Assembly (NCBI GenBank): GCA_964019425.1
Contig: OZ025805.1
Coordinates: forward strand, 434,001 to 498,000
Length of the DNA: 64,000 nt
Direction of reading: 5' to 3'
From: Flectonema sp. DT1601
Taxonomy: Eukaryota
In this document: one piece after another, positions 24,419-51,644 of the stretch
Numbering within the stretch: the stretch's first letter is position 1
Layout of the letters: every line of letters begins with the position of its first letter
Translations under genes and position numbers: made by a program
Notes under the pieces: generated by a model
Told to the model about the DNA's origin: nothing
Databases searched by the model: none
What the model saw: only the letters and a program-made list of their open reading frames with translations

Positions 24419-25795
24419 TGGGGAGTGGGATGTGGATCCGGAGGAAGTTGAACATTTGTTTGCTGGTGATACCCTTTGCGAAACTGATCGGCTGGCAGAT
24501 CATGGAGTGGTTGCAAACAGCGAGTTTGAAATGGCGAAGAAGCAGTTTAGGATATTCGGTAAATGCTGGTTTGTTGATGATGCAAAACGGGAGAATCTGC
24601 TTCTTTGGATGAGAGACCACATTACGGAGTATTTATGTCTGGACACTGCCACATTCACAGAAGATGGTTGCCTCACTGTTGAAGGTGACATACTTCCTTC
24701 AGATGCCGAACAGATTGTTTTCCGCAATTCAAATTCCAACAGCACAGCCATGTCATCAGTTACCACTATCGGAGATGAGTTCTTGTTCCGTTGTTCACAA
24801 ATCACTTCTCTTGACCTATCATGTCTAAGTAGTGTCACTACTATTGGAGAAAGATTCTTATATTTCTGTTCAGAAATCACTTCTGTAAACCTTCCAGATC
24901 TCAGTAGTGTCACCACTATTGGAGATAAATTCTTATTTTATTGTTCAAGGATCACTTCTGCTGACCTTTCGGGTCTAAGTAGTGTTACTGTTATTGGACA
25001 TTTGTTCTTGTGTTCCTGTTCACAAATTAGCGCGCCTCCTCGTGGTGTTACCTGGAGAGTGCTGACGTATTGTTGTTGTTGCTGTGTATTCTTTTACCCC
25101 CGTTTTATTTTCCGGTAGCCTAACCTTTAAAAAAAAAAAAGGACAACATAGCAGAAGGTCAGGTGATCCGATCGCCTGAAATGTATTAACAGTATCAGCC
25201 CCGCGAGTTACTCGGGGAGCTCCCATGCAATGTGTGGAGAAAGAGGCCATCCCTCCCCCTACCTCTCTGCTTTACTACGTCGTTTTTTGTGTGTGGCATT
25301 TCTTTTCTTATATTCTTTTCTTTTCAATCTTGTTCCTTCACACGCAGTTGTTCGAGCGGTTGTGAACCACCTTGGGTCTCTTACGGTCTCCAAGCTACTG
25401 TTGTGCGAAGAAACAAATCTGTTGGTGCGGTGGCCTTCCGACGCCACCTGGACCGCAACTCGTTCACAGTGCCCTACCCGGTTCTCCACCGGACCGCCTG
25501 AGCGACGGGATCCATGGGATTCAAACCCCTAAACACTGGTTAATTTTTTTTTCATTGTTCAAGGATCACTTCTGTTGACCTTTCGAGTTTAAGTAGTGTT
25601 ACTGTTATTGGAGATGAGTTTTTGTTTTCCTGTAAAGAAATCACTTCTCTTGACCTTTCAGATCTAAGTAGTGTCACCACTATTGGTGATCGCTTTATCA
25701 GTAAATGCGACTCTCTTGAATCTGTCCAGCTTCCTGAAAGTAATAGCGCTCTCTTTGAGAAGTCTGTGAAAGCAGCGATTGATCATTCAGGATAA
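24419..25795 (+). pseudogene. Ubl-LRR pseudogene, 5'-truncated and interrupted by a short retroelement
   Basis: Starts mid-domain at EWDVDPEE, has LRR units on both sides of the 25028-25551 insertion, and ends AAIDHSG*. Confidence 0.85.
25028..25551 (+). mobile_element. Non-autonomous LRR-targeting retroelement, internally deleted copy
   Basis: Homologous to 34166-34859. Lacks the first 17 nt, the ribozyme P4 segment and a central block. Ends ...aaacactggttaa-T(n). Flanks do not match each other. Confidence 0.9.
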
Positions 25796-26340: not shown

Positions 26341-26757
26341 TTTTAGAAAGGAATGGTTTTACTGATTTGAATAAGATAAATAAACTGCTAACACCGAGTA
26401 ATGACATTTATTTTGAACAATAAAATTAGATTAGACTTGTGAGACATTTAGCCCTGATCAGTAGTATCGAATCAGAGTTTATATTTGGTTGGGAATATTT
26501 GAAAAAAATAAGCAGGGAAATTCTCCATTGATATCGGAAATGAGTACCTAGGCATGGGTCACATCCTTGTAGTGTTCACTTTTATTCATTCAGGTCACTG
26601 AAACAGATGAATCCTTTAGTAAAACAGTATTCATACCCCTTTGAGGGAATGTAATTACATGTCGCATCCTCGTAGTATTCGATACCCAGATGTCACTTGT
26701 ACAAGTTCTTTCTAACAGAACCCTTCCCACCTCACAGCAAATTATTTAAAAAAGACA

Positions 26758-28068
26758 ATGCAAGTTTTTGTGACGTGTCCTGATTGGGGACTCCCCGCAG
26801 TGACAGTGACGGCTGGTGCTGATTCGGTTGTGATCGACGTGTTGACGGAGGCTGCTGAGGAGTGGGATGTGGATCCGGAGGAAGTTGAACTCTCGTTTGC
26901 TGGTGATACCCTTTGCGAAACTGATCGGCTGGCAGATCATGGAGTGGTTGCAAACAGCGAGTTTGAAATGTGGACGAAGCAGTTTAGGATATTCGGTAAA
27001 TGCTGGTTTGTTGATGATGCAAAACGGGAGAAGCTGCTTCTTTGGATGAGAGACCACATTACGGAGTATTTATGTCTGGACACTGCCACATTCACAGAAG
27101 ATGGTTGCCTCACTGTTGACGGTAAGCTGCTTCCTTCAGATGCCGAACAGATTGCTTTCCGCAATTCAAATTCCAACAGCACAGCCATGTCATCAGTTAC
27201 CACTATCGGAGATGAGTTCTTGTCTTCCTGTTCGCAAATCACTTCTCTTGACATTTCAGGTCTTAGTAGTGTCACCACTATAGGAAAATTATTCTTGTCT
27301 TCCTGTTCACAAATCACTTCTGTAAACCTTTCAGGTCTTAGTAGTGTCACGGCTATTGGATATAAGTTCTTGTCTTCCTGTTCACAAATATCTTCTCTTG
27401 ACTTATCAGGTCTTAGTAGTGTCACCATAGTAGGAGTCGGATTCCTGTTTTCCTGTTCACGAGTCGTTTCTATTGATCTTTCTGGTCTTAGTAGTGTCAC
27501 CATAGTAGGAGGCGGATTCCTGTTTTCCTGTTCACGAGTCGTTTCTCTTGATCTTTCTGGTCTTAGTAGTGTCACTACTATTGGTGATCTTTTCTTGTCT
27601 CACTGTTCACAAATCACTTTTCTCGACCTTTCAGGTCTCAATAGTGTCACCTCTATTGGTGATGATTTCTTGTGTTCTTGTGAACGGATAGCAACAGTTG
27701 ACCTTTCAGGTCTTTGCTGTGTTACTTCTATTGGAGATAGGTTCCTTTCTTTTTGTACACAAATCACTTCTGTGAACCTTTCGGGTCTTGATAGTGTCAC
27801 CGCTATAGCAAATTACTTCTTGCGTTGTTGTTTATGTATTATTTCTCTTGATCTTTCAAGTCTTATTAGTGTCACCACAATAGGAAGTAATTTCTTGCGT
27901 AGTTGTTCAGGAATCACTTCTCTTGACCTTTCAAGTCTTGGTAGTGTCACCACTATTGGTGATTGCTTTCTCAGTAAATGCTACTCTCTCACATCTGTCC
28001 AGCTTCCTGAAAGTAATAGCGCTCTCTTTGAGAAGTCTGTGAAAGCAGCGATTGATCATTCAGGATAA
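26758..28068 (+). CDS. Ubiquitin-like domain + BspA/TpLRR-type leucine-rich-repeat protein (11 repeats)
   Basis: N-terminal MQVFV...LSFAGDTL...LADHGV resembles a ubiquitin fold. 25-aa repeats CSQITSLDLSGLSSVTTIGxxFL. No signal peptide or TM segment. Confidence 0.9.
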   Translation: MQVFVTCPDWGLPAVTVTAGADSVVIDVLTEAAEEWDVDPEEVELSFAGDTLCETDRLADHGVVANSEFEMWTKQFRIFGKCWFVDDAKREKLLLWMRDHITEYLCLDTATFTEDGCLTVDGKLLPSDAEQIAFRNSNSNSTAMSSVTTIGDEFLSSCSQITSLDISGLSSVTTIGKLFLSSCSQITSVNLSGLSSVTAIGYKFLSSCSQISSLDLSGLSSVTIVGVGFLFSCSRVVSIDLSGLSSVTIVGGGFLFSCSRVVSLDLSGLSSVTTIGDLFLSHCSQITFLDLSGLNSVTSIGDDFLCSCERIATVDLSGLCCVTSIGDRFLSFCTQITSVNLSGLDSVTAIANYFLRCCLCIISLDLSSLISVTTIGSNFLRSCSGITSLDLSSLGSVTTIGDCFLSKCYSLTSVQLPESNSALFEKSVKAAIDHSG

Positions 28069-29277
28069 AGTAGAGAATTGATTCTTAAGGTTTTTCTTTT
28101 TTTGTTATTTTTGTTTTATTAATTACTTGACCTTCGTGTACATTCTGACTGAAATATGAAAACTTCTTATCAAAGATTACGGAATAAGAACAATCATCGA
28201 TTTGAGAACTACTTTAAAAGGTATTACGGTCACATAAAAGAAGGGAAATAAAAGTAAGAAAAGAAAATAATAATTAAGAATATTTAAAAAAGTAAATAAG
28301 TCTGAAGGAAGAGAAGCTCAAGGAGCAGATTGGACAAGAACAACTCCAACAACAACAACAACAACTGTGTGTTCGTCATCGGAACAGTCGCATTCCCTGA
28401 TCTCACCCCCACTTCCCAGAACTGTACAGATACTTCTTTGTTGTGGATTTCTGACTTGTTTAATCTGAACTCTTAATTATAAACCATATTTCTTTATCAG
28501 GTGCATCCAGTAATGAAAAGTGACTTACCCGACGACGGAAGAGAAATGTATTGTGGATTTTAGTTTTATTAGAAGCACTGCTTTTAGTGTAGAGATTTTG
28601 ATGCTCCCAATTAACTTTTTTATGAGAAGTGTTACAGCAACCTGAAAATAAAATATGAAATTAGATTAGAAGAGGGAAGCTGTGAAACACATTTGTGAAC
28701 TACTTTTGATTGGCAGCCAATCAATAATTATATCCAAACATTATTTACAGAAATGTAATAACATGTCGCATCCTCGTAGTATTCGATGATTCAATGTAGG
28801 GATCGTATTTATATTTATTGTTGCTGCCTGGCGTTTTGAAAATATGAAATACACCAATAGAGGTACTCATATTATAAAAACAGAACCGGCATGGAACTTT
28901 GAAATTGAAAAGTTAGATACGAACGTACTAATGCTATCCCCGGTTAGAGATGCACGAGCGTTATCTCCGGAAAAATAATTTTGAAACTAAGTATGATTCC
29001 AACTGTGCCAAACATGACAAAGTGTCATATCCCACTATAAGAATCACCTGCTGAAATTACATACCAAACCATGACAATCTCACCACTGGATTTCAGTACC
29101 CCGAGTATCGTTATGCATTTATGGATATACCTACCTCTCGAAACCTAAATAGTTATTTAGAAGGCTAATTTAAGGATCACCTTAGTTCGCTGTATTCCTT
29201 AACAGATTGTTAAATTATCGTTCATTCCCCCTACAGGATATTATCCGTACAGTAATAAATATTTATATCATCGTGAA

Positions 29278-31572
29278 ATGCTGTTGTCAGTAATCGCACT
29301 GCTTGCAGTGTCACAATGTGAATTGAACGGAACTATTATAAATCCGTTCTATGTTTACAAAGCTAGTGACATTATTGATTGTTACAACACTGTTCCAGTT
29401 GATCAGGATGTGATTACCGAAGCGTTGAAGGCAGCATCAGAAATGATTGAGTTCTATCACGGTACTGATGTTGCTATGTCTACAGATCCGAATATCGTCG
29501 GGAAAGTTGATTTGAGATTGGCTCTTGCGGAATTTCGTATCAGAAATTGGGATTCCGACTTCCAGTTTCACAGTTCAATGGGACGGCTTTTCTCTAAGCT
29601 TCATGATGGTCATACTGCATACATCATCCCTTCAGGGTACCATTCAGCTTATGCGTTACCCATTGTCTTGGGATCGAAATTAGTTAACAATCAACAAGTT
29701 ATATATGTCAGTGATTTCCATTCGACATTCTCTACTTTCTCACCTGGACAATCATGGAGCTCTATTGCAGTAAACGATACAATTTCAGAGATTAACGGGT
29801 TTCCAGCATTGTCTTATTTGGCTGACTTCTTCGATGAAAATGGAGCATCAAAGACGAGGGGAGCTGATCTAAATCGGTTCTTACGAGAAGTGCGAACCTT
29901 CTCAAATACAGTAACTGGTCTTCAACTGCTTTCCATGGATATCACAATTCTAGGTGGAGCTACGCACACGATTCCATTATATGCAGGAAGAGCTGATCGC
30001 GAACTAACAACTGCCTTGATTATTTCTCAAAACGTTCCACAACAACAAACTGTTAGAAAAGTTGAGACTCAGAGCACTCTCTCAGAAATTGATCAACTTC
30101 ACTCCATTTCACGTGAGCTCAGGGATGCGAGGGTAACAGATTTCGAGCATCGTATTAAGCCGATTAGCACTCCAGAAAGGAGAAATGTTGAAGCTTTATC
30201 TCCGTCTGAATTGTGGACTCAGGGAAATGTGGTTGCTCAGTTCCCGAAGAATACCAGCGACCCAAATATTGTGTGCACGTCTTTTGAGCATTTAGATGAT
30301 CCAGTCATGTATCTCTACATCGATACGTTCCACCCAGAAATAGGTGGGGGGTCTTCTTGTGGTGATATAAGAGTGTTGGCGGATTTCGTGAAAGTAGTTG
30401 AAGCTTGCAACGATCGTTCATCTCAAACTACTGAACTCATATTGGATGTTCGTGGAAACGGAGGTGGAGTGATTTTGCTGTATTGGCAAATCTTAAATTA
30501 CTTCTCTCCTAAGTTGTGGTTGCCAACTGAGTTGAGAGAAGCCTCAAAAACAACTTCTTCATTCCACGTTGAACCAGCTGTGACAGCGTCAGTTAAAGGA
30601 GCTTGGGAATACTCTTTGACTAACATGACTAGAAAGTACCTCGACCTCTACTACGCTGTAGTATTTAGCGACTCTACTTACAATGTGATCTTATCAACAA
30701 CAGGTGAGAGTCTTATTGATGAACCACTCAGTGCCACAGATAGAAGCAATTCTTACAATAAATTAAAGGATCTTTTCACTAATAAATTAGTAGAGAAGAG
30801 TCGTGCAACTGGATCCCCAAAGGTCTGGGTCGCACCAAAACTTGAAAGAATGTACAAGCCGTTCGTTGACTTTAAGAACGTTGATAAGTGTCGTTTCCGT
30901 GATGATTTCTTTCCAAAGCAACCAACGAAAGGTTTTGCAACAATTAAAGTAATGTCGCTTGGATTATGTGGCAGCTCGTGTTCACACACTGTGAAGCTTC
31001 TTAATAACGTAAACGCAGCGACTGTGTTCACTGCTGGAGGTGTTAGTGGAGAACGTCACAGGATAAGCTCAACTACCAATGCTCCTGTTTATCAATGGAA
31101 TGCTTGGACTGATATTGCTAATAGCAGAGGTATGGGAGATGGTCTTACCCCAATCACTATGACTAATGCTGCACTGTCGTTTAGTTTAGCTGCTTTTTAT
31201 CCAGATCTTACTGACCCTTATTCTGGTGAATTCGAACCAGTTTACGCGAAGGAAACACTGCCTTACTGGCCTCCATTCTCACCAGCAACAGAACTCGATA
31301 TGCTGAAACAGATTGCAAGTAAAAGTATTTCAACGACAACTGGTTGGGTAGAATATGAGAACGGTACTTTTAAGGTTCCGGGTACGGTGGTTGCTGAATC
31401 AGTACCAGCAACACCATCACCACCTTCTAGTGGTCTGGAGTTGGGTGTCTTATTGCTTGTGATTATTTTACCTACAGTTACTGTTATTGCCGTCATCATA
31501 ATTGTGTTTTGCTTTCATAAGAAACGTTCAACCGAACAGACCAGGGAAATTAGTCATGAAATGCATGAGTAA
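29278..31572 (+). CDS. Membrane-anchored S41-family (tail-specific-like) serine peptidase, copy 1
   Basis: Signal peptide, LHDGHT, ILDVRGNGGG, CGSSCS (putative nucleophile), C-terminal TM and short basic tail. Confidence 0.85.
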   Translation: MLLSVIALLAVSQCELNGTIINPFYVYKASDIIDCYNTVPVDQDVITEALKAASEMIEFYHGTDVAMSTDPNIVGKVDLRLALAEFRIRNWDSDFQFHSSMGRLFSKLHDGHTAYIIPSGYHSAYALPIVLGSKLVNNQQVIYVSDFHSTFSTFSPGQSWSSIAVNDTISEINGFPALSYLADFFDENGASKTRGADLNRFLREVRTFSNTVTGLQLLSMDITILGGATHTIPLYAGRADRELTTALIISQNVPQQQTVRKVETQSTLSEIDQLHSISRELRDARVTDFEHRIKPISTPERRNVEALSPSELWTQGNVVAQFPKNTSDPNIVCTSFEHLDDPVMYLYIDTFHPEIGGGSSCGDIRVLADFVKVVEACNDRSSQTTELILDVRGNGGGVILLYWQILNYFSPKLWLPTELREASKTTSSFHVEPAVTASVKGAWEYSLTNMTRKYLDLYYAVVFSDSTYNVILSTTGESLIDEPLSATDRSNSYNKLKDLFTNKLVEKSRATGSPKVWVAPKLERMYKPFVDFKNVDKCRFRDDFFPKQPTKGFATIKVMSLGLCGSSCSHTVKLLNNVNAATVFTAGGVSGERHRISSTTNAPVYQWNAWTDIANSRGMGDGLTPITMTNAALSFSLAAFYPDLTDPYSGEFEPVYAKETLPYWPPFSPATELDMLKQIASKSISTTTGWVEYENGTFKVPGTVVAESVPATPSPPSSGLELGVLLLVIILPTVTVIAVIIIVFCFHKKRSTEQTREISHEMHE

Positions 31573-34165
31573 GTCAAAAATATACCTCACCGATTTTTTT
31601 ATAATATGAAACGTGCCTGTCGGTTCAAAACCCTCCCTCTCATCGTCAAAATGGAGTAGTTGTCGTTAACAGTTGTGATACATTATTATGTTGGTTTATT
31701 GAAAAATAAAACAATTATCCCTCCCTTCAATGAAATTCGTAACTGTTTTTTTTTTTTAAATCAATAAATCCCTCTTCATGAAGTTCCCCTTATTTCATCA
31801 CCTGTTGTGAATAATAACTGTAACGGAAAGGCATATGTTTGCCGTGGTTGCAATTTATGGTTTTCGATACCTCTTTTTCTTTTTTTAATTTTCAAAAAAA
31901 ACAATAGCATGGATACTGCCGTACAAGGTTATTCATTTTCGTTGTTGTCGTGTATGTAAAGTAGAACCGATAAAGCAGAAAAGTTTTTAAAAATATTTTT
32001 TTTTAATATTTTCCCTGCAATGATAAACATTTCAGGTGTAAACATCTCACATCGCCATAACTTACATTCCGACATTTGTATTTTTAACGTCATCAAACTA
32101 CTGTGTAATTGTTGTGTTTATTCCTCTCTTATTCTTTTTTTTAAACTAAAAAAAACAAACGTAACCCTTATAACTAAATGTAAGCTCGTGGGCAGTGCCT
32201 GTGAGATCTTAATCCCTTCAAACCCCCCGTGTCTATACTGATGATGAGAGAATAGAGGTTAAAGAGGTATATATGGATTACTCTCGAAACCTAAATAGTT
32301 ACTTTAAAAGACTAAGATAAGCCTCTATTGTAGTATAAGTGTGACACGAGGTTAACTGAGCGACTCTTGCTGACTGTGAAGCTAGACTAGATGGCTGCTC
32401 AGGTGTACGGGACTCTCACCCAAGAGACTGTGTTGTTGAGTGTCTCTTGTAGTGTATAAATTAAGGTTATAAAGCAGAAAGTTAAAGATAACTTTGGCAT
32501 TTGTTTTTAACATAATCTGCTTATCGCTCTCTCCTGTTCTGTTTTTTTTTTTTTTTTTTTTTTTTAAATGTAGTATCTGACAGCGGGAATCCCCATATTC
32601 GCCAGTTTTTCAAAGTTGCTCTCCATTTAATATTAGTATCAAGTCCCCCCCGCTCTGGGGCTTTCACTTAAGCAACCAGATTTCACGAGAGTACCATAAA
32701 AAGGTGTTGGATAAACCATAATTTTAAATTTCCTTTTTTTTTAGCTCTCTCGGTTTATGTTGATTGACTGTTTCGTACATCAAATATTCCCATCTATTCA
32801 CAAGTATTTGTTTATATTAATTTATAACATTCTCTTAATATCTCTTTTGATTCTGTTCCTTACAAATTGGAATTGCTACTCGTGTTGCCTGTTTTCTTCT
32901 TGTCGAGGCTTTCAGTAAGCCCCCCCTTGTAATATAAATTCTTTTGGGACAATAGGAGAATTCATGTCGCACGCATGTGATTATTTCATGAAGGTTTTAA
33001 TATGTAATGGAACAGTATTTTTTCTTTTTTGTTATTCCTTTCTCATTACCCATTCTTTTTTTTTGCTCGCAATCTGTTATTCTTCTGGACAAGGTGAACA
33101 GTTGGCAATCGATCCTTGCATCCGAAAGCTATAAAAACCATCACCGCGATTATGTCCTCTAAAATAGAATTAACTTTTGCTTCTTCGTCTCATCTCCGCA
33201 GGTGGTTTGTGAAAGCCTCTGCTAGGAAATCCTAATACTAACTCTTACTGATAAAACATCGAATTTCAGTTAAAAACAATCATTGTTTGTTTACTTATTC
33301 GTGACAACTCATAAGCCATCATTTATTCCCCCCACAGAGGATAATATCCATACAGTGAAGGCAGTGATTAGCTGAACCATATCTATTGTTCTCTTTATGA
33401 GTTCCTGATCTCACCCACCCTTCCCCACTTCCCAGAACTGTACAGATACTTCTTTGTTGTGGATTTCTGACTTGTTTAATCTGAACTCTTAATTATAAAC
33501 CATATTTCTTTATCAGGTGTGCCCAGTAATGGAAAGTGAATTTCTAATTTAGAAAGTTTCGAATGACAGAAATCATACGAACGTTATCAAGGTGCTAATC
33601 GCTGATTGTTTTTCATAGAAAAGGTAAAGATTATTTATATCCCTTTCTCAGTCCCTGCACACTAACTCAAGAAAAACAATGCAAGTTTTTGTGACTTGTC
33701 CTGATTGGGGACTCCCCGCAGTGACAGTGACGGCTGGTGCTGATTCGGTTGTGAACGACGTGTTGACAGAGGCTGCTGAGGAATGGGATGTGGATCCGGA
33801 GGAAGTTGAACTCTCGTTTGCTGGTGATACCCTTTGCGAAACTGATCGACTGGCAGATCATGGAGTGGTTGCAGACAGCGAGTTTGAAATGTGGACGAAG
33901 CAGTTTAGGATATTCGGTAAATGCTGGTTTGTTGATGATGCAAAACGGGAGAAGCTGCTTCTTTGGATGAGAGACCACATTACGGAGTACTTATGTCTGG
34001 ACACTGCCACATTCACAGAAGATGGTTGCCTCACTGTTGACGGTAACCTGCTTCCTTCAGATGCCGAACAGATTGCTTTCCGCAATTCAAATTCCAACAG
34101 CACAGCCATGTCATCAGTTACCACTATCGGAGATGAGTTCTTGTCTTCCTGTTCGCAAATCACTT

Positions 34166-34238
34166 GGGTAACGAAACTCGGATAGCGCGCCTCCTCGTGG
34201 TGTTGCCTGGATGCACCTTGTGTGTAACTAGAGTGCTG
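34166..34238 (+). ncRNA. HDV-like self-cleaving ribozyme (predicted)
   Basis: P1 GGGTAAC/GTTGCCT, P2 TAGCGC/GTGCTG, P3 GCC/GGT, L3 TCCTCGT, P1.1 CC/GG, P4 TGCAC/GTGTA, J4/2 with C. Confidence 0.82.
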
Positions 34239-34859
34239 ACGTATTGTTGTTGTTGCTGTGTATTCTTTTACCCCCGTTTTATTTTCCGGTAGCCTAACCT
34301 TTAAAAAAAAAGGACAACATAGCAGAAGGTCAGGTGATCCGGCCCGGGATACTCAGGCACCCAGAGCTCACAGGGGCCACCGGGTTTTTATTTTTTCCTT
34401 AGTGGCATGATTTCCCTTTACCCCCATTTCCTTCAAACTTCCCCCGTTTAGTCTTTTCACGCATGGGGGGATTATAAGTTCAGGTCGCCTGAAATGTATT
34501 AACAGTATCAGCCCCGCGAGTTACTCGGGGAGCTCCCATGCAATGTGTGGAGAAAGAGGCCATCCCTCCCCCTACCTCTCTGCTTTACTACGTCGTTTTT
34601 TGTGTGTGGCATTTCTTTTCTTATATTCTTTTCTTTTCAATCTTGTTCCTTCACACGCAGTTGTTCGAGCAGTTGTGAACCACCTTGGGTCTCTTACGGT
34701 CTCCAAGCTACTGTTGTGCGAAGAAACAAATCTGTTGGTGCGGTGGCCTTCCGACGCCACCTGGACCGCAACTCGTTCACAGTGCCCTACCCGGTTCTCC
34801 ACCGGACCGCCTGAGCGACGGGATCCATGGGATTCAAACCCCTAAACACTGGTTAATTT
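34166..34859 (+). mobile_element. Non-autonomous LRR-targeting retroelement (SINE/SIDE-like), full length
   Basis: Perfect 20-bp TSD ttcctgttcgcaaatcactt (34146-34165 and 34860-34879). Starts GGGTAAC and ends ggttaa-T(n). Confidence 0.92.
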
Positions 34860-36837
34860 TTCCTGTTCGCAAATCACTTCTCTTGACCTTTCAGGTCTTA
34901 GTAGTGTCACCACTATAGGAAAGTTATTCTTGTCTTCCTGTTCACAAATCACTTCTGTAAACCTTTCAGGTCTTAGTAGTGTCACGGCTATTGGATATAA
35001 GTTCTTGTCTTGCTGTTCACAAATATCTTCTCTTGACTTATCAGGTCTTAGTAGTGTCACCATAGTAGGAGGCGGATTCCTGTTTTCCTGTTCACGAGTC
35101 GTTTCTATTGATCTTTCTGGTCTTAGTAGTGTCACTACTATTGGTGATCTTTTCTTGTCTCACTGTTCACAAATCACTTTTCTCGACCTTTCAGGTCTCA
35201 ATAGTGTCACCTCTATTGGTGATGATTTCTTGTGTTCTTGTGAACGGATAGCAACAGTTGACCTTTCAGGTCTTTGCTGTGTTACTTCTATTGGAGATAG
35301 GTTCCTTTCTTTTTGTACACAAATCACTTCTGTGAACCTTTCGGGTCTTGATAGTGTCACCGCTATAGCAAATGACTTCTTGCGTGATTGTTTATGTATT
35401 ATTTCTCTTGATCTTTCAAGTCTTATTAGTGTCACCACAATAGGAAGTAATTTCTTGCGTAGTTGTTCAGGAATCACTTCTCTTGACCTTTCAAGTCTTG
35501 GTAGTGTCACCACTATTGGTGATTGCTTTCTCAGTAAATGCTACTCTCTCACATCTGTGCAGCTGCCTGAAAGTAATAGCGCTCTCTTTGAGAAGTCTGT
35601 GAAAGCAGCGATTGATCATTCAGGATAAAGTGGTGAATTGATTCTTAAGGTTTTTCTTTTTTTGTTATTTTTGTTTTATTAATTACTTGACCTTCGTGTA
35701 CATTCCGACTGAAATATGAAAACTTCTTATCAAAGATTACGGAATAAGAACAATCATCGATTTGAGAACTACTTTAAAAGGTATTCCGGTCACATAAAAG
35801 AAGGGAAATAAAAGTAAGAAAAGAAAATAATAATTAAGAATATTTAAAAAAGTAAATAAGTCTGAAGGAAGAGAAGCTCAAGGAGCAGATTGGACAAGAA
35901 CAACTCCAACAACAACAACAACAACTGTGTGTTCGTCATCGGAACAGTCGCATTCCCTGATCTCACCCCCACTTCCCAGAACTGTACAGATACTTCTTTG
36001 TTGTGGATTTCTGACTTGTTTAATCTGAACTCTTAATTATAAACCATATTTCTTTATCAGGTGCATCCAGTAATGAAAAGTGACTTACCCGACGACGGAA
36101 GAGAAATGTATTGTGGATTTTAGTTTTATTAGAAGCACTGCTTTTAGTGTAGAGATTTTGATGCTCCCAATTAACTTTTTTATGAGAAGTGTTACAGCAA
36201 CCTGAAAATAAAATATGAAATTAGATTAGAAGAGGGAAGCTGTGAAACACATTTGTGAACTACTTTTGATTGGCAGCCAATCAATAATTATATCCAAACA
36301 TTATTTACAGAAATGTAATAACATGTCGCATCCTCGTAGTATTCGATGATTCAATGTAGGGATCGTATTTATATTTATTGTTGCTGCCTGGCGTTTTGAA
36401 AATATGAAATACACCAATAGAGGTACTCATATTATAAAAACAGAACCGGCATGGAACTTTGAAATTGAAAAGTTAGATACGAACGTACTAATGCTATCCC
36501 CGGTTAGAGATGCACGAGCGTTATCTCCGGAAAAATAATTTTGAAACTAAGTATGATTCCAACTGTGCCAAACATGACAAAGTGTCATATCCCACTATAA
36601 GAATCACCTGCTGAAATTACATACCAAACCATGACAATCTCACCACTGGATTTCAGTACCCCGAGTATCGTTATGCATTTATGGATATACCTACCTCTCG
36701 AAACCTAAATAGTTATTTAGAAGGCTAATTTAAGGATCACCTTAGTTCGCTGTATTCCTTAACAGATTGTTAAATTATCGTTCATTCCCCCTACAGGATA
36801 TTATCCGTACAGTAATAAATATTTATATCATCGTGAA

Positions 36838-39132
36838 ATGCTGTTGTCAGTAATCGCACTGCTTGCAGTGTCACAATGTGAATTGAACGGAACTATTATA
36901 AATCCGTTCTATGTTTACAAAGCTAGTGACATTATTGATTGTTACAACACTGTTCCAGTTGATCAGGATGTGATTACCGAAGCGTTGAAGGCAGCATCAG
37001 AAATGATTGAGTTCTATCACGGTACTGATGTTGCTATGTCTACAGATCCGAATATCGTCGGGAAAGTTGATTTGAGATTGGCTCTTGCGGAATTTCGTAT
37101 CAGAAATTGGGATTCCGACTTCCAGTTTCACAGTTCAATGGGACGGCTTTTCTCTAAGCTTCATGATGGTCATACTGCATACATCATCCCTTCAGGGTAC
37201 CATTCAGCTTATGCGTTACCCATTGTCTTGGGATCGAAATTAGTTAACAATCAACAAGTTATATATGTCAGTGATTTCCATTCGACATTCTCTACTTTCT
37301 CACCTGGACAATCATGGAGCTCTATTGCAGTAAACGATACAATTTCAGAGATTAACGGGTTTCCAGCATTGTCTTATTTGGCTGACTTCTTCGATGAAAA
37401 TGGAGCATCAAAGACGAGGGGAGCTGATCTAAATCGGTTCTTACGAGAAGTGCGAACCTTCTCAAATACAGTAACTGGTCTTCAACTGCTTTCCATGGAT
37501 ATCACAATTCTAGGTGGAGCTACGCACACGATTCCATTATATGCAGGAAGAGCTGATCGCGAACTAACAACTGCCTTGATTATTTCTCAAAACGTTCCAC
37601 AACAACAAACTGTTAGAAAAGTTGAGACTCAGAGCACTCTCTCAGAAATTGATCAACTTCACTCCATTTCACGTGAGCTCAGGGATGCGAGGGTAACAGA
37701 TTTCGAGCATCGTATTAAGCCGATTAGCACTCCAGAAAGGAGAAATGTTGAAGCTTTATCTCCGTCTGAATTGTGGACTCAGGGAAATGTGGTTGCTCAG
37801 TTCCCGAAGAATACCAGCGACCCAAATATTGTGTGCACGTCTTTTGAGCATTTAGATGATCCAGTCATGTATCTCTACATCGATACGTTCCACCCAGAAA
37901 TAGGTGGGGGGTCTTCTTGTGGTGATATAAGAGTGTTGGCGGATTTCGTGAAAGTAGTTGAAGCTTGCAACGATCGTTCATCTCAAACTACTGAACTCAT
38001 ATTGGATGTTCGTGGAAACGGAGGTGGAGTGATTTTGCTGTATTGGCAAATCTTAAATTACTTCTCTCCTAAGTTGTGGTTGCCAACTGAGTTGAGAGAA
38101 GCCTCAAAAACAACTTCTTCATTCCACGTTGAACCAGCTGTGACAGCGTCAGTTAAAGGAGCTTGGGAATACTCTTTGACTAACATGACTAGAAAGTACC
38201 TCGACCTCTACTACGCTGTAGTATTTAGCGACTCTACTTACAATGTGATCTTATCAACAACAGGTGAGAGTCTTATTGATGAACCACTCAGTGCCACAGA
38301 TAGAAGCAATTCTTACAATAAATTAAAGGATCTTTTCACTAATAAATTAGTAGAGAAGAGTCGTGCAACTGGATCCCCAAAGGTCTGGGTCGCACCAAAA
38401 CTTGAAAGAATGTACAAGCCGTTCGTTGACTTTAAGAACGTTGATAAGTGTCGTTTCCGTGATGATTTCTTTCCAAAGCAACCAACGAAAGGTTTTGCAA
38501 CAATTAAAGTAATGTCGCTTGGATTATGTGGCAGCTCGTGTTCACACACTGTGAAGCTTCTTAATAACGTAAACGCAGCGACTGTGTTCACTGCTGGAGG
38601 TGTTAGTGGAGAACGTCACAGGATAAGCTCAACTACCAATGCTCCTGTTTATCAATGGAATGCTTGGACTGATATTGCTAATAGCAGAGGTATGGGAGAT
38701 GGTCTTACCCCAATCACTATGACTAATGCTGCACTGTCGTTTAGTTTAGCTGCTTTTTATCCAGATCTTACTGACCCTTATTCTGGTGAATTCGAACCAG
38801 TTTACGCGAAGGAAACACTGCCTTACTGGCCTCCATTCTCACCAGCAACAGAACTCGATATGCTGAAACAGATTGCAAGTAAAAGTATTTCAACGACAAC
38901 TGGTTGGGTAGAATATGAGAACGGTACTTTTAAGGTTCCGGGTACGGTGGTTGCTGAATCAGTACCAGCAACACCATCACCACCTTCTAGTGGTCTGGAG
39001 TTGGGTGTCTTATTGCTTGTGATTATTTTACCTACAGTTACTGTTATTGCCGTCATCATAATTGTGTTTTGCTTTCATAAGAAACGTTCAACCGAACAGA
39101 CCAGGGAAATTAGTCATGAAATGCATGAGTAA
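36838..39132 (+). CDS. Membrane-anchored S41-family serine peptidase, copy 2
   Basis: Translation identical to 29278-31572. Confidence 0.85.
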   Translation: MLLSVIALLAVSQCELNGTIINPFYVYKASDIIDCYNTVPVDQDVITEALKAASEMIEFYHGTDVAMSTDPNIVGKVDLRLALAEFRIRNWDSDFQFHSSMGRLFSKLHDGHTAYIIPSGYHSAYALPIVLGSKLVNNQQVIYVSDFHSTFSTFSPGQSWSSIAVNDTISEINGFPALSYLADFFDENGASKTRGADLNRFLREVRTFSNTVTGLQLLSMDITILGGATHTIPLYAGRADRELTTALIISQNVPQQQTVRKVETQSTLSEIDQLHSISRELRDARVTDFEHRIKPISTPERRNVEALSPSELWTQGNVVAQFPKNTSDPNIVCTSFEHLDDPVMYLYIDTFHPEIGGGSSCGDIRVLADFVKVVEACNDRSSQTTELILDVRGNGGGVILLYWQILNYFSPKLWLPTELREASKTTSSFHVEPAVTASVKGAWEYSLTNMTRKYLDLYYAVVFSDSTYNVILSTTGESLIDEPLSATDRSNSYNKLKDLFTNKLVEKSRATGSPKVWVAPKLERMYKPFVDFKNVDKCRFRDDFFPKQPTKGFATIKVMSLGLCGSSCSHTVKLLNNVNAATVFTAGGVSGERHRISSTTNAPVYQWNAWTDIANSRGMGDGLTPITMTNAALSFSLAAFYPDLTDPYSGEFEPVYAKETLPYWPPFSPATELDMLKQIASKSISTTTGWVEYENGTFKVPGTVVAESVPATPSPPSSGLELGVLLLVIILPTVTVIAVIIIVFCFHKKRSTEQTREISHEMHE

Positions 39133-45114: not shown

Positions 45115-46208
45115 GGCACTCGCTATGATGATGATGATATCACTTCATGTGGCTCAGATAGCTCATAATTCATCATAAGTTGTGACTTCATATAAAGAAA
45201 GTGTTGTACAAGTGTTTTCATTAAGTATCAAAGTAGCACACGTAAACCTCCTTTAACTTTATCAGTTTCGGTTCACAGTTAGTGACACAAACAAAACATC
45301 ACAGTAGTTGTTATATTATTATTTTCTGTATAGTTCAAGATAAAGCCAATTCTGTTTTTGTAAATATAAACCCATTGTTGTTTGGTAGAGCGTAACTAAC
45401 CTATTCCTTTATTTATTAAAGATTTTTTGCTGGTTGCGCCAAAACAAAAAGAAAGTGAAGTGCAATTTGCCGATTCCTTTTTACCCAGGTAGTACTTTTA
45501 CAAAGAATGTAGAACCGAATTGGTTAAACATTTCATTACAGGAATCTAACAACATGTCGCATTCTTCGTAGTATTCGATACCCAGACATGATTCAATGTA
45601 GGGATCGTATTTATATAATTGTTGCAGCCTGGCGTTTGGAACACAACATCCACACATTCTTTACACAGCAGCCATATATTAACACCCCACAGCAAATAGT
45701 AATTCAAAAAACTAACAAACAATGCAAGTTTTTGTGACGTGTCCTGATTGGGGACTCCCCGCAGTGACAGTGACGGCTGGTGCTGATTCGGTTGTGATCG
45801 ACGTGTTGACGGAGGCTGCTGAGGAGTGGGATGTGGATCCGGAGGAAGTTGAACTCTCGTTTGCTGGTGATACCCTTTGCGAAACTGATCGGCTGGCAGA
45901 TCATGGAGTGGTTGCAGACAGCGAGTTTGAAATGGCGAAGAAGCAGTTTAGGATATTCGGTAAAAGCTGGTTTGTTGATGATGCAAAACGGGAAAAGCTG
46001 CTTCTTTGGATGAGAGACCACATTACGGAGTATTTATGTCTGGACACTCGGACATTCACAGAAGATGGTTGCCTCACTGTTGACAGTAGGCTGCTTCCTT
46101 CAAATGCCAAACAGATTGCTTTCCGCAATTCAAATTCCAACAGCACAGACATGTCATCAGTTACCACTATCGGAAATAAGTTCTTATATGGCTGTTCCCA
46201 AATCACTT

Positions 46209-46281
46209 GGGTAACGAAACTCGGATAGCGCGCCTCCTCGTGGTGTTACCTGGATGCACCTTGTGTGTAACTAGAGTGCTG
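46209..46281 (+). ncRNA. HDV-like self-cleaving ribozyme (predicted)
   Basis: P1 46209-15/46245-51 with G1.U wobble, P2 46226-31/46276-81, P3 46232-34/46242-44, L3 TCCTCGT, P1.1 GG 46252-53, P4 46255-59/46265-69, putative catalytic C 46271. Confidence 0.85.
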
Positions 46282-46904
46282 ACGTATTGTTGTTGTTGCT
46301 GTGTATTCTTTTACCCCCGTTTTATATTCCGGTAGCCTAACCTTTAAAAAAAAAGGACAACATAGCAGAAGGTCAGGTGATCCGGCCCGGGATACTCAGG
46401 CACCCAGAGCTCACAGGGGCCACCGGGTTTTTATTTTTTCCTTAGTGGCATGATTTCCCTTTACCCCCATTTCCTTCAAACTTCCCCCGTTTAGTCTTTT
46501 CACGCATGGGGGGATTATAAGTTCAGGTCGCCTGAAATGTATTAACAGTATCAGCCCCGCGAGTTACTCGGGGAGCTCCCATGCAATGTGTGGAGAAAGA
46601 GGCCATCCCTCCCCCTACCTCTCTGCTTTACTACGTCGTTTTTTGTGTGTGGCATTTCTTTTCCTATATTCTTTTCTTTTCAATCTTGTTCCTTCACACG
46701 CGGTTGTTCGAGCGGTTGTGAACCACCTTGGGTCTCTTACGGTCTCCAAGCTACTGTTGTGCGAAGAAACAAATCTGTTGGTGCGGTGGCCTTCCGACGC
46801 CACCTGGACCGCAACTCGTTCACAGTGCCCTACCCGGTTCTCCACCGGACCGCCTGAGCGACGGGATCCATGGGATTCAAACCCCTAAACACTGGTTAAT
46901 TTTT
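46209..46904 (+). mobile_element. Non-autonomous LRR-targeting retroelement, full length
   Basis: Perfect 20-bp TSD tggctgttcccaaatcactt (46189-46208 and 46905-46924). Confidence 0.92.
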
Positions 46905-47074
46905 TGGCTGTTCCCAAATCACTTCTCTTGACCTTTCAAGTCTTAGTAGTGTCACCACTATTGGCGATTGTTTGTTGTCTTTCTGTTCACAAGTCACTGC
47001 TCTTGATCTTTCAGGTCTTAGTAGTGTCACTACTATAGGAAATGATTACTTGTATTCCTATTCAGGAGTCACTT

Positions 47075-47769
47075 GGGTAAGGAAACTCGGATAGCGCGCC
47101 TCCTCGCGGTGTTACCTGGAGAGTGCTGACGTATTGTTGTTGCTGTGTATTCTTTTACCCCCGTTTTATTTTCCAGTCGCCTAACCTTTAAAAAAAAAAA
47201 AAAGGACTACATAGCAGAAGGTCAGGTGATCCGGCCCGGGATACTCAGGCACCCAGAGCTCACAGGGGCCACCGGGTTTTTATTTTTTCCTTAGTGGCAT
47301 GATTTCCCTTTACCCCCATTTCCTTCAAACTTCCCCCGTTTAGTCTTTTCACGCATGGGGGGATTATAAGTTCAGGTCGCCTGAAATGTATTAACAGTAT
47401 CAGCCCCGCGAGTTACTCGGGGAGCTCCCATGCAATGTGTGGAGAAAGAGGCCATCCCTCCCCCTACCTCTCTGCTTTACTACGTCGTTTTTTGTGTGTG
47501 GCATTTCTTTTCTTATATTCTTTTCTTTTCAATCTTGTTCCTTCACACGCGGTTGTTCGAGCAGTTGTGAACCACCTTGGGTCTCTTACGGTCTCCAAGC
47601 TACTGTTGTGCGAAGAAACAAATCTGTTGGTGCGGTGGCCTTCCGACGCCACCTGGACCGCAACTCGTTCACAGTGCCCTACCCGGTTCTCCATCGGACC
47701 GCCTGAGCGACGGGATCCATGGGATTCAAACCCCTAAACACTAGTTAATTTTTTTTTTTTTTTTTTTTT
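47075..47769 (+). mobile_element. Non-autonomous LRR-targeting retroelement, ribozyme-defective copy
   Basis: Starts after GTCACTT^. P4 and the catalytic C are deleted. T tail exceeds 20 nt. Left and right 20-mers differ at 6 positions. Confidence 0.9.
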
Positions 47770-48035
47770 TTCCTGTGAACAAATCACTTCTCTTGACCTT
47801 TCAGGTCTTACTAGTGTCACCGCTATTGGTGATTGCTTTCTCAGTAAATGCGACTCTCTTGAATATATCCAGCTTCCTGTGCAGCTGCCTGAAAGTAATA
47901 GCGCTCTCTTTGAGGAGTCTATGAAAGCAGCGATTGATCATTTAGGATAAAGTGGTGAATTGATTCTTAAAGTTTTGTTTTTTGTTATTTTTGTTTTATT
48001 AATTACTTGACCTTCGTGTACATTCCGACTGAAAT

Positions 48036-48410
48036 ATGAAAACACTGGTTAATTTTTCTAGTGTCAACGCTATTAGAAATGCTTTTTTGTGGGACTGTTC
48101 ACAAATTACTTCTCTTGACCTTTCAGGTCTTTCTAATGTCACCGATATTGGAGGTAAATTCTTATATCATTGTTCAAGGATCACTTCTGTTGACTTTTCG
48201 AGTTTAAGTAGTGTTACTGTTATTGGAGATGAGTTTTTGTTTTCCTGTAAACAAATCACTTCTCTCGACCTTTCAAATCTTAGTAGTGTCACCACTATTG
48301 GTGATCGCTTTATCAGTAAATGCGACTCTCTTGAATCTGTCCAGCTTCCTGAAAGTAATAGCGCTCTCTTTGAGGAGTCTGTTAAAGCAGCGATTGATCA
48401 TTCAGGATAA
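48036..48410 (+). pseudogene. Chimeric LRR C-terminal fragment ORF (124 aa)
   Basis: ATG from a family 3' flank, fused through the element's 3' tail (aaacactggttaattttt) in frame to LRRs and the AAIDHSG* cap. Confidence 0.7.
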
Positions 48411-48435
48411 ACCCCTAAACACTGGTTAATTTTTT
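48409..48435 (+). mobile_element. 3'-terminal remnant of the short retroelement
   Basis: aaacccctaaacactggttaatttttt followed by an in-register 20-mer tgattgttcagaaatcactt. Confidence 0.85.
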
Positions 48436-51400
48436 TGATTGTTCAGAAATCACTTCTCTTGACCTTTCAGGTGTCATTAGTGTAACTACTGTTGGAAGTG
48501 GCTTCTTGTCTTTCTGTTCCCAAATCACTTGGGCAATACGGCTACCGGAAGGGGAGATCTACGCTCGACCTCAGCTGGAAGATAGCACTAGACGTGGAAC
48601 ACGCAACTCTCTACGGAGAAGAGGTTGCAGGAGTGACCACGGACTTCAGGAAGTGTTTCGACCTGATCCCGCACGACATCCTCCTGAAATTAGTGAAGGA
48701 ATTGGGCCTCGGTGATAAGATCCTGAGAACTGTGACGGATGTCTACCGGCGACTCAGAAGGAGATTCAAGTTCCCGAGCGGCGTCGGAGAAGAATTTGCC
48801 ACCACCAACGGAATACTGCAAGGATGCCCGCTCAGCGTGGTGCTCTTCAATGCGCTGAGCTCGATACTCAGCAAAGCAATCGAGAGGGAAGCCGATGTGA
48901 CGCCCGGATCATATGCGGACGACCTGACGTTGTTTGGATCACGAACGAAGCTACAAGAAGGCGTAGAAGTCGTTGCGGAGTTCTGCACCCTGACCGGACA
49001 AGAACTCGCACCTCAGAAGTGCAAGTGGTTCTCGAACAGAGACCAGGGCCAGACCAACATCACAATGGGACTGGACTTCGATGACAGTGTCGATATCGTG
49101 GGATGCCACCTCAGTATGAAAGGAACCACCAAGCAGATGGGGAGGATCACGGAAGAAGTGCTCGATAGAGCGAGGCGAATCCGGTTACTTCCGCTCAGAT
49201 ACCAAGCGAAGGAACAGATAGCTGCAGCTAGTGTCATGCCCAAGGCGCTCTTCGGAACGGCACTGTACGATCCCGATGCGACGCGACTCGGACTGCTGAG
49301 AAGAGCAATGGCAACGGGGATTTTCCGCAAACTTGGAGGGAAAAGAACTAAGATGTCGCACACCATGGGCCTAACGCTACTCTGCAAGGGACATTGTGTG
49401 GATCCCGCGACGTACATTAGGTACAACAGACTCCTTGCACTCACCAGAATGCTACCGAAGCTAACTGAGAAGATACGCAGGGTATGGGAACACCTGCAAG
49501 AGCACACTGAAGCGACGAGAGGACCAGTCGGCCTCGCCCTGAGTACTCTGAAGGAACTTGGATGGGAATGGTCAACTTTCTCGGTCTTCGAAGGTCCGGG
49601 AGGGACGACCGAACACGGAAGGCTGGATGCGGGGCGCTGGCGGCACGATGTCAGAGAGGCGTGCAGGCGTTTCACCTGGAACAAAACAATTGCGGAAACG
49701 AGACGGGTAAACCTGAGAGGTATTGAAGCGGGCATCGACCGGAAAGAGACCCTGAAGGTCCTGAAGGAAGGAAAGGGCGACCCCTACCTGCGCGGAGTAG
49801 TGAAGCACTGCCTCCTGGACAACGTGTACACTGGCTCGATGAAGGCGGGAAACAAGAACTGCGCGCACTGCGAGGAGGTTGACGACGTAGAGAGGACGGA
49901 GACCCTCGAGCACGTGAACTGGGATTGCAGAGCTTATGACACAATCCGACAGGAATATCCGCAAGTGATGCTACAAGTTCGATGCGATTGGCCCAATTGC
50001 CTGAGGCTACTCGGCATCAAGCCCGACAATGTGGAACTGCCGGCGGGGCTCACCGGAGACCTACAACGAATGTTCGCACGGATCAGGCTCCGCAGGGACG
50101 ACTACCAACAACTGGAGGAGAGACGGCTGACGGTTGTGGAATACGCTGGGAACAAGGAACCGGAAGTAGTTATGCGATACAACAACAAACTGGAAAAGTA
50201 CATGCCAGTATACACCCAATGGCCCGAAGCCCTTGGATTGACCTTGTACTTGGCGCTTGCGAGCTACCTGAGGGAATTGAAGTGGCCTCGACAGCCAGAC
50301 GGGGTCGGAGTCACCTTCCTGGAATTAGCGATCGACTTCGAAGCGTATGCGGGGGTTGACATACCGACCACAGTCCACGAAGGCCACGTAGCGAAGTGCA
50401 CCAAAGACAGAGCCGCCGGGAAGAAAGCTGACGTCATGTGTGGACTGATGCTAAGATTGAACTTGGTTCACAAGCATTTAGAAGGCGAGGAACAAAGAAC
50501 CTTTCCCGACTACTGCGTAGGAAGCAACAAAGCCTTACGTCCACTAGGAGCCCCGGTACTGAAAGGTTTGAAGAAACGACCAGCTTTTCTGATGGGAGAC
50601 GAAACAGTAGACACAATTCGGAGGACGGTCCAGGAGGCGAACGACGGAAAAGCTGACAAAATCAGATTCGGCTTCGAGACTGAGTGCAGGCACTCGAACG
50701 AGAGGGAAGGGAGAGCGGAGAAATGGATAACCGCGGCACGACTTTTCCCATCAAAGGAAAAAGACGTACAGCTGAGGAGGGAGCTCTGCGAGCGAGGACC
50801 GACACGCCCGCCACCCGAGGTCGTCAAGAGACCGGGCATCGCGGAGGGACGAGGAACGATGAACTCGACGTGCTACGGACACTTCAAGAAGAAATGCAAT
50901 AGTTGTCGACGGGCCGGAAACACCATCTACCAGTGCTGCCACAACCATCACACTCTGGGGGATGAAGATGGACAAATACCGATATGGGACTTTTGCAGCA
51001 AACACAAGCTTACTCCATGTGCAGTCTGCATAGTGATCGGCAGAGGATCTGAGCAATGTTGCAGAAACAGCCACCACCGATGCCGTCACCACGAGATGGC
51101 TCCCTGCAACGACTGCAAGCGGAATCCGGATCCGGAACAACGGACTGCCACGAAATGCTGCAACAAAAAACATCACGGGCCAATTATAAGGACGTTGACG
51201 AGGAGGGCGAAGCAGCCGACGAAGCATGATATGCAAACCAGCACATCGCTTCTAAAATTAGGTTTCACCAAACAAATGAAACCGAAAGCAGAGGAAACCC
51301 CGGAAAGGGAACCACAGGACAAGGGGTTAACTTAGGTTGGCCGAACCAGTGCCTCGTCATCTCACCGTGCTAGCAAGCCTGAATGACAGCACTCAAAATG

Positions 51401-51644
51401 GTACATATATTTCTGTTCCCAAATCACTTCTCTTGACCTTTCAGGTTTAAGTAGTGTCACTATTATTGGTGATTATTTTTTACTTTCCTGTTCAGGAGTC
51501 ACTTCTCTGGACCTTTCAAGTTTAAGTAGTGTTACGAGAATAGGGAATAATTTCCTCAGTAAATGCGATTCTCTTGAATCTGTCCAGCTTCCTGAAAGTA
51601 ATGGCGCTGTTTTTGAGAAGCCTTTGAAGGCAGTGATTAGCTGA
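48436..51644 (+). pseudogene. LRR gene fragment interrupted by a non-LTR retrotransposon
   Basis: LRR-coding sequence at 48436-48530 and 51410-51644, ending ...KAVIS*. Confidence 0.8.
48531..51409 (+). mobile_element. 5'-truncated non-LTR retrotransposon (RT, CCHC finger, Cys/His repeats); ORF open to 51335
   Basis: RT motifs QYGYRKGRST, DFRKCFD, GILQGCPLS, YADD, then CAHC...ETLEHVNWDC. Perfect 20-bp TSD tttctgttcccaaatcactt (48511-48530 and 51410-51429). Visibly more GC-rich than the host DNA. Confidence 0.93.

What the first reader, a model, noticed from the sequence alone, without database searches (positions are those of the whole stretch)
46209..46281. HDV-like ribozyme whose cleavage site is the exact 5' end of the short element
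Seen: the first 73 nt fold by hand into the full nested double pseudoknot: 7-bp P1 with a G1.U wobble, P2, P3, L3 UCCUCG(U/C), P1.1, P4 and a J4/2 cytosine. G1 is the first base after the TSD. Copy 34166 has an A>G change in P1' that keeps a U.G pair. Known: R2, R2 SIDEs and L1Tc/ingi/SIDER elements use 5' HDV-like ribozymes to cut themselves out of host co-transcripts. Inference: the element needs no promoter, is released from the LRR pre-mRNA by self-cleavage, and would also sever the host mRNA.
Basis: partly seen in the sequence, partly recalled or inferred. Interest (0 to 1): 0.88.

Follow-up and report, generated by a model that had tools for sequence, protein, structure and literature searches.

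The report
Variant self-cutting head on LRR-targeting retroelement
The flagged 73 bases fold like a hepatitis-delta-type self-cutting RNA and form the exact front end of a 696-base jumping element that repeatedly sits at one fixed spot inside a family of repeat-protein genes; the fold likely cuts the element out of the host transcript, although its catalytic strand has an unusual sequence, which a second element family appears to share.

Summary
Observation confirmed; interpretation partly supported. 46209-46281 forms every HDV-like helix, starts on the first base after a 20-bp target duplication, and is far beyond chance. It heads a 696-bp non-coding, T-tailed element inserted at one register of a 75-bp leucine-rich-repeat (LRR) coding unit; a truncated APE-RT LINE sits at the same register. 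The host is probably a diplonemid. That form was absent from 235 phage and prokaryote look-alike loci. Cleavage, 'no promoter needed' and cutting of host mRNA are untested; an in-frame stop 18 bases into the element already ends the LRR frame. Verdict: new variant of a known kind.

The parts
46209..46281 (+). HDV-like fold heading the element; predicted cut 5' of G46209; predicted catalytic C46271; non-canonical J4/2 46271-46275 (CUAGA); A.A pair 46254/46270 on top of P4
46209..46904 (+). Full-length 696-bp non-coding element ending in a T run; no match to any LINE protein held, no tRNA
46189..46208 (+). Left target-site duplication (20 bp); last base is U at -1
46905..46924 (+). Right target-site duplication
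45722..46228 (+). Host ubiquitin-like/LRR gene, ended by a stop 18-20 bases inside the element
34166..34859 (+). Second full copy (99.3% identical) with its own, different 20-bp duplication (34146-34165 / 34860-34879): an independent insertion
27225..27244 (+). Empty site: the same 20-mer, single, in the intact paralogous gene 26716-28068
47075..47771 (+). Copy starting at G1 but lacking 19 nt (P4 and the catalytic C), with a mismatch at the 7th P1 pair, 23-T tail, flanks not duplicated
25028..25552 (+). 5'-truncated copy with the same 19-nt deletion and a 142-nt internal deletion
48409..48436 (+). 27-nt 3'-end stub of the element, T tail at the standard register
48039..48057 (+). Shorter 3'-end stub at a different register (the one exception of six T-tail junctions)
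48531..51409 (+). 5'-truncated LINE (RT, CCHC knuckle, Cys/His-rich C-terminus) at the same register with a 20-bp duplication (48511-48530 / 51410-51429); 99% identical to the 1542-aa APE-RT protein P0011

Best explanation
The 73 bases are an HDV-type fold with a variant catalytic strand (C-N-A-G-A) at the exact 5' end of a short non-coding element, and they likely cut the element's RNA out of the host LRR co-transcript, after which a LINE enzyme likely copies it into the same position of another LRR repeat. Shown: fold, junctions, duplications, empty site, shared register with the LINE. Deduced from database proteins: further insertions at the same base and a second head with compensatory stems. 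Inferred: host read-through transcription, cleavage 5' of G1 leaving a 5'-OH end, target-primed reverse transcription in trans by an APE-RT LINE that makes staggered cuts 18-20 bp apart, priming helped by the 3' U run pairing with the A's exposed opposite the T's that begin the duplication.
For: All helices pair and chance is excluded. U at -1, the best base for HDV cleavage (PMC1874588, abstract), and an A.A pair above P4, the commonest pair in selected HDV variants (PMC2175327, passages). 3 of 4 window copies with a 5' end start at G1. Of 36 non-window LRR-family proteins (38, 2 are the window's own) 5 end in the element's read-through peptide WVTKLG and 1 in the matching end of another frame; P0134 is a seventh and implies a U>C change that turns the P2 end pair from wobble into C-G. 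P0085 and P0101 are compatible as two frames of one insert for 74 nt (shuffled control: at most 18 in 1000); the deduced head folds from base 1 (0 of 300,000 shuffles), with 10 of 22 compared pairs changed on both sides, 3-4 on one side, 7 unchanged, 1-2 broken, and J4/2 CAAGA. 5 of 6 T-tail junctions and the LINE share the register. All eight LRR gene starts and both elements lie on the + strand; Diplonema genes are likely co-transcribed (PMC10161547, passages).
Against: No cleavage or RNA data. J4/2 fails C-N-R-A: the fourth-position A was perfectly conserved in 119 selected HDV variants, and one extra base after the C slowed cleavage from 0.85 to 0.009 per min (PMC2175327). 2 of 4 window copies lack P4 and the C, one of them still starting at G1. 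The 5'-truncated LINE also begins with GGG at this junction, so a G start may be partly a feature of insertion. The flank of 46209 is predicted to pair with G1-G3 (p 0.95-0.99; 0.06-0.34 in copy 34166) and nested-fold programs do not favour P1 (z 0.22; they cannot score pseudoknots). The element shares neither end with the window's LINE (32% of shuffles align as well), so the mobilising enzyme is inferred from the target site only. The second family is deduced from predicted proteins, not read from DNA. LINE and LRR records share contig lengths in 7 of 10 cases against 1 of 6 for a sister LINE, but this is not significant (Fisher p 0.12).
Confidence: 0.68

Rival explanations
1. The head is a ribozyme-derived internal promoter (as Pr77 of L1Tc): transcription starts at G1, and the fold is slow or vestigial, kept for promoter or protein-binding reasons.
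For: Precedent of dual function (PMC3185411); non-canonical J4/2; copy 47075 begins at G1 without the C and shares its deletion with 25028, as if a C-less source had been copied.
Against: Two families keep pairing while changing stem sequence (10 double changes) and keep the C and the A.A pair, which is selection on RNA structure rather than on DNA sequence; 47075 has no duplication, so it may be a recombinant, and the deletion removes exactly one hairpin, as reverse-transcriptase skipping would.
Confidence: 0.17
2. The true catalytic strand is the canonical CUGA at 46279-46282 (C46279) with a weaker alternative P2, so that the P4-less copies are active minimal ribozymes.
For: Matches C-N-R-A; survives in both deleted copies; Rfam's weak alignment places its consensus there.
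Against: The alternative P2 is 3.5-4.9 kcal/mol weaker and the stronger P2 sequesters that C; the second family's C-A-A-G-A lies at the position equivalent to C46271 and it has no such second motif before the end of P2; the change implied by P0134 fits the first register.
Confidence: 0.05
3. The ribozyme was active in an ancestor but the present family is a decayed relic spreading by gene conversion and unequal crossover among LRR genes.
For: The window is full of tandem duplication; copies share variants in mosaic fashion; 2 of 4 copies have non-matching flanks.
Against: 46209 and 34166 each duplicate their own different target, with an empty paralogous site; database insertions lie in different repeat units and diverged subfamilies; intact 1542-aa LINE frames exist (4 among 15 listed of 22 cluster members).
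Confidence: 0.1

Closest known systems
NARTc/L1Tc and RIME/ingi of trypanosomes (Pr77, L1TcRz; PMC3185411 passages, PMC4035085 parts 1-2 of 7)
   Same: Euglenozoan host (likely), short non-coding element with an HDV-like fold whose cut site is base +1, target duplications, APE-RT partner.
   Different: No shared ends with the LINE beside it; T tail instead of poly(A); the LINE shows no RNase H in Pfam; C-N-A-G-A strand. Sequence homology to Pr77 was not tested.
R2 SIDEs and R2/R1 hybrid SIDEs of Drosophila (PMC3414825, passages)
   Same: Ribozyme-headed non-autonomous element at a fixed site in a multicopy transcribed gene; hybrid SIDEs use an APE-type partner and make duplications.
   Different: Target is a protein-coding repeat, not 28S rDNA; no parent found for either end.
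RHS genes as ingi/RIME hot spot (PMC7563717, passages)
   Same: A protein-coding multigene family repeatedly broken at one site by a LINE and its short partner.
   Different: Here the site recurs every 75 bp within each gene and at least three unlike heads use it.
HDV antigenomic and genomic ribozymes, phage theta ribozymes (PMC2175327, PMC10879173, passages)
   Same: Nested double pseudoknot, L3, P1.1, purine.purine pair, C at the start of J4/2.
   Different: Fourth J4/2 base is G (or one extra base follows the C); 0 of 125 viral and 0 of 110 prokaryote loci picked for C-N-A-G-A fold that way, while 21 of 120 viral loci picked for C-N-R-A fold canonically.

Membership tests
HDV-like ribozyme | P1 of 6-7 bp starting G1.Y, P3 of 3 bp, P2 of 5 bp or more | tested here: met
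HDV-like ribozyme | L3 with conserved U, C, G and a P1.1 pseudoknot | tested here: met
   same in the second family
HDV-like ribozyme | Cytosine at the start of J4/2, after a purine.purine pair | tested here: met
   C46271; same place in the second family
HDV-like ribozyme | J4/2 consensus C-N-R-A with invariant A | tested here: not met
   CUAGA; 0 hits with canonical descriptors; consensus from PMC2175327. Filed as a variant that works like the family, not as a canonical member
HDV-like ribozyme | Rfam gathering score for an HDV-type family | tested here: not met
   15.5 bits against 44
HDV-like ribozyme | Mg2+-dependent self-cleavage lost in C-to-U | not testable with these tools
   needs in vitro assay
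Non-autonomous non-LTR retroelement | Target-site duplication, empty site, 5'-truncated copies keeping the 3' end, variable tail, no coding capacity | tested here: met
SIDE / NARTc / RIME (internal-deletion derivative of its LINE) | 5' and 3' ends shared with the partner LINE | tested here: not met
   3' ends unlike; the LINE's head reads as a different peptide (P0096, P0115). Another, unseen LINE could be the parent
SIDE / NARTc / RIME | Poly(A) tail | tested here: not met
   T runs of 5-23 at the 3' end
tRNA-derived SINE | tRNA-like head | tested here: not met
   ARAGORN 0 genes; no tRNA family in Rfam matches
L1Tc/ingi clade (for the LINE) | Single ORF with APE and RT, 2A-like motif before APE | tested here: inconclusive
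   APE and RT present; a 2A-like motif is seen by eye in relative P0002 only (motif per PMC3708506)
L1Tc/ingi clade (for the LINE) | RNase H domain | tested here: not met
   no Pfam RNase H in P0001, P0002, P0011, P0012, P0004
L1Tc/ingi clade (for the LINE) | RT phylogeny | not tested
   no reference RT of named clades among 61 hits

The most novel reading that the evidence does not exclude
Diplonemids carry an active, undescribed C-N-A-G-A subtype of the HDV ribozyme at the heads of a guild of unrelated LINEs and short elements that all home to one base of a protein-coding LRR repeat, using T-tailed RNAs, so that the LRR family serves them as rDNA serves R2 and is broken and reshuffled by them.
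Probability: 0.35. Interest if true: 0.76.

Novelty: new variant of a known kind. Interest (0 to 1): 0.6.

Why it matters
Ribozyme-headed non-autonomous retroelements are known, so the basic finding is not new. Three things would be. (1) A natural, conserved departure at the HDV ribozyme's supposedly invariant J4/2 adenosine: if these heads cleave, standard C-N-R-A searches miss a class, and the pair of natural sequences gives a direct test of how the catalytic C is positioned. [quoted passage not shown] (3) Extension of such ribozymes to diplonemids: searches (1 paper, unrelated by title and abstract; 2 papers, on R2) found no report, within an open-access library only; Webb 2009, Ruminski 2011 and the R2 structure supplement were not seen and could list J4/2 variants.

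Tried and rejected
No genome is held and no read data were obtained, so copy number, expression and RNA ends are open. Metagenome scans found nothing: element head pattern 0; LINE alignment 151 pattern matches, 0 confirmed. Viral scan for the core plus CTAGA: 10 loci, none folds. Spliceosomal intron reading (GT near the start, T tract at the end): by inspection the nearby AGs do not restore the LRR frame; not tested with reads. Minus-strand poly(A) element: rejected because truncated copies keep the T end and the fold and LINE are on +. Alternative catalytic C46279: disfavoured. The LINE's own head (one frame, P0096): core, P1.1 and a 6-bp P1 from base 1 are codon-compatible (17 of 2000 shuffles), but no full fold was feasible (13 of 2000 shuffles gave one); the positive control P0134 also gave no full fold since its frame stops before the C: inconclusive. 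Whole-element folding is unremarkable (z 0.74). Poly(T)-tail literature search gave nothing relevant by title and abstract (the usual spelling with brackets cannot be searched). Mutational-scan paper PMC9901934: passages and supplement list only, no per-base value found. PMC4908430, PMC6326823, PMC6765202, PMC3774820: passages (one section of the last), background only. Earlier findings by place and sequence: none.

Full report
Observation. G46209 and G34166 are each the first base after a 20-bp duplication, and the A>G change in 34166 keeps a wobble pair. A loose descriptor finds only these two copies in the window and 4 hits in 2047 shuffled windows, both strands; 0 of 300,000 shuffles of the head fold from base 1. 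The descriptors were written with the sequence in view. Rfam's only HDV-type match is far below threshold but starts at exactly 46209.

The element. It is 696 bp, matches none of the proteins then held and no tRNA, and ends in a T run of 5-23. The window has two full copies, one copy that starts at G1 but lacks P4 and the C, one truncated copy with the same deletion, and two 3' stubs. The two full copies duplicate different target sequences and an empty paralogous site exists, so they are separate insertions. Five of six T-tail junctions fall at one register of the 75-bp LRR coding unit. A 5'-truncated LINE at 48531-51409 has the same register and a 20-bp duplication; it is 99% identical to a 1542-aa APE-RT protein whose closest named relatives are from Flectonema neradi (58 and 55%) and Diplonema papillatum, so the host is probably a diplonemid. 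The element and this LINE share neither 3' end nor head.

J4/2 reads CUAGA. Canonical C-N-R-A descriptors fail. In HDV the fourth-position A was invariant among 119 selected variants and an extra base after the C cost about 100-fold (PMC2175327, passages). A canonical CUGA lies 8 bases downstream and survives in the deleted copies, but needs a P2 that is 3.5-4.9 kcal/mol weaker.

Outside evidence. With no genome or reads, I used predicted proteins of the LRR family that read through into insertions. Of 36 non-window proteins among 38 hits (only lengths 239-762 were searched, so early truncations are missed), 5 end in the element's peptide at the same base and 1 in the matching end of another frame; P0134, among 101 representatives, is a seventh and implies changes that keep P1 and P2 paired. 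Two more, on different contigs, are one other insert read in two frames: they stay compatible for 74 nt against at most 18 in 1000 shuffles and leave 4 solutions differing at two positions. This second head begins at the same register, folds from base 1, has L3 UCCUCGC, the A.A pair and J4/2 CAAGA; against the window's head 10 of 22 pairs are changed on both sides, 3-4 on one side, 7 unchanged and 1-2 broken. It fixes C46271 as the conserved C and makes C-N-A-G-A a family trait rather than decay of one copy. A ninth protein, P0096, reads into a peptide that also begins P0115, a member of the LINE cluster, so the LINE's own 5' end sits in an LRR gene too; its codons allow the core and P1 but a full fold was not shown. 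That these records come from the window's assembly is inferred from shared contig lengths.

How unusual is the strand? With the same L3, none of 125 viral loci (56 of 64 parts scanned) and none of 110 prokaryote loci picked for C-N-A-G-A folds with it, whereas 21 of 120 viral loci picked for C-N-R-A (6 of 64 parts scanned) fold canonically; 12 and 2 loci of the first two sets fold with C-N-R-A instead. Eukaryote genomes could not be scanned.

Mechanism. Most likely (0.68) the element is transcribed within the LRR unit (Diplonema genes are likely co-transcribed; PMC10161547), cuts itself 5' of G1 (U at -1 favours this; PMC1874588, abstract), and is copied in trans by an APE-RT LINE into another LRR repeat. 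Cleavage, transcription and the identity of the enzyme are inferred. Rivals are an internal promoter as in L1Tc Pr77 (PMC3185411), a relic spreading by recombination, and the alternative C. Results against: two copies lack the C; the truncated LINE also starts with GGG; the flank of 46209 is predicted to sequester G1-G3; the LINE-LRR contig overlap (7 of 10 against 1 of 6) is not significant. Cutting the host mRNA is secondary, since a stop at 46226-46228 already ends the frame.

Comparison and verdict. It works like NARTc/RIME and R2 SIDEs (PMC4035085; PMC3414825), and the target recalls RHS genes (PMC7563717), but it fails membership of the SIDE type (no shared ends, no poly(A)) and the canonical J4/2 test. 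Searches found no report of such a ribozyme in diplonemids or of LRR targeting, in an open-access library; the R2 supplement could not be read and Webb 2009 and Ruminski 2011 were seen only as references. New variant of a known kind; interest 0.6.

Noticed in passing
window 14950-17325 (+): ORF with a GIY-YIG-like motif followed, after one stop, by an ORF ending in what looks like the start of a Penelope-type RT: probably a broken Penelope-like element with an N-terminal endonuclease. Labels are recalled; Pfam found nothing.
   Followed up: partly
P0001, P0002 (LINE relatives): N-terminal Josephin-like stretch (weak Pfam hit in P0002, E 0.012) and a 2A-like motif ahead of APE-RT, without RNase H: an architecture that fits no clade I could confirm.
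   Followed up: partly
P0085: The second insert family stays open for 426 codons past the junction with a glutamine-rich, coiled-coil-like stretch, so it is a long element (at least 1.3 kb), possibly another LINE's first ORF; no match among stored proteins or in the window.
   Followed up: partly
window 29203-31572 and 36763-39132: Two identical 789-aa S41-peptidase-like genes 7560 bp apart, part of a recent tandem duplication that includes the LRR genes.
   Followed up: no
window 46905-48530: Between copy 46209 and the LINE lie two more insertions and two stubs among LRR fragments with non-matching flanks, suggesting repeat shuffling at these sites.
   Followed up: partly
window 20188-22203 (+): 671-aa ORF with a P-loop-like motif, no significant Pfam family.
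   Followed up: no
L284 or L351; L014-L255: Pattern scans turned up complete canonical HDV-like folds in phage contigs and one convincing short one in a prokaryote genome record.
   Followed up: no
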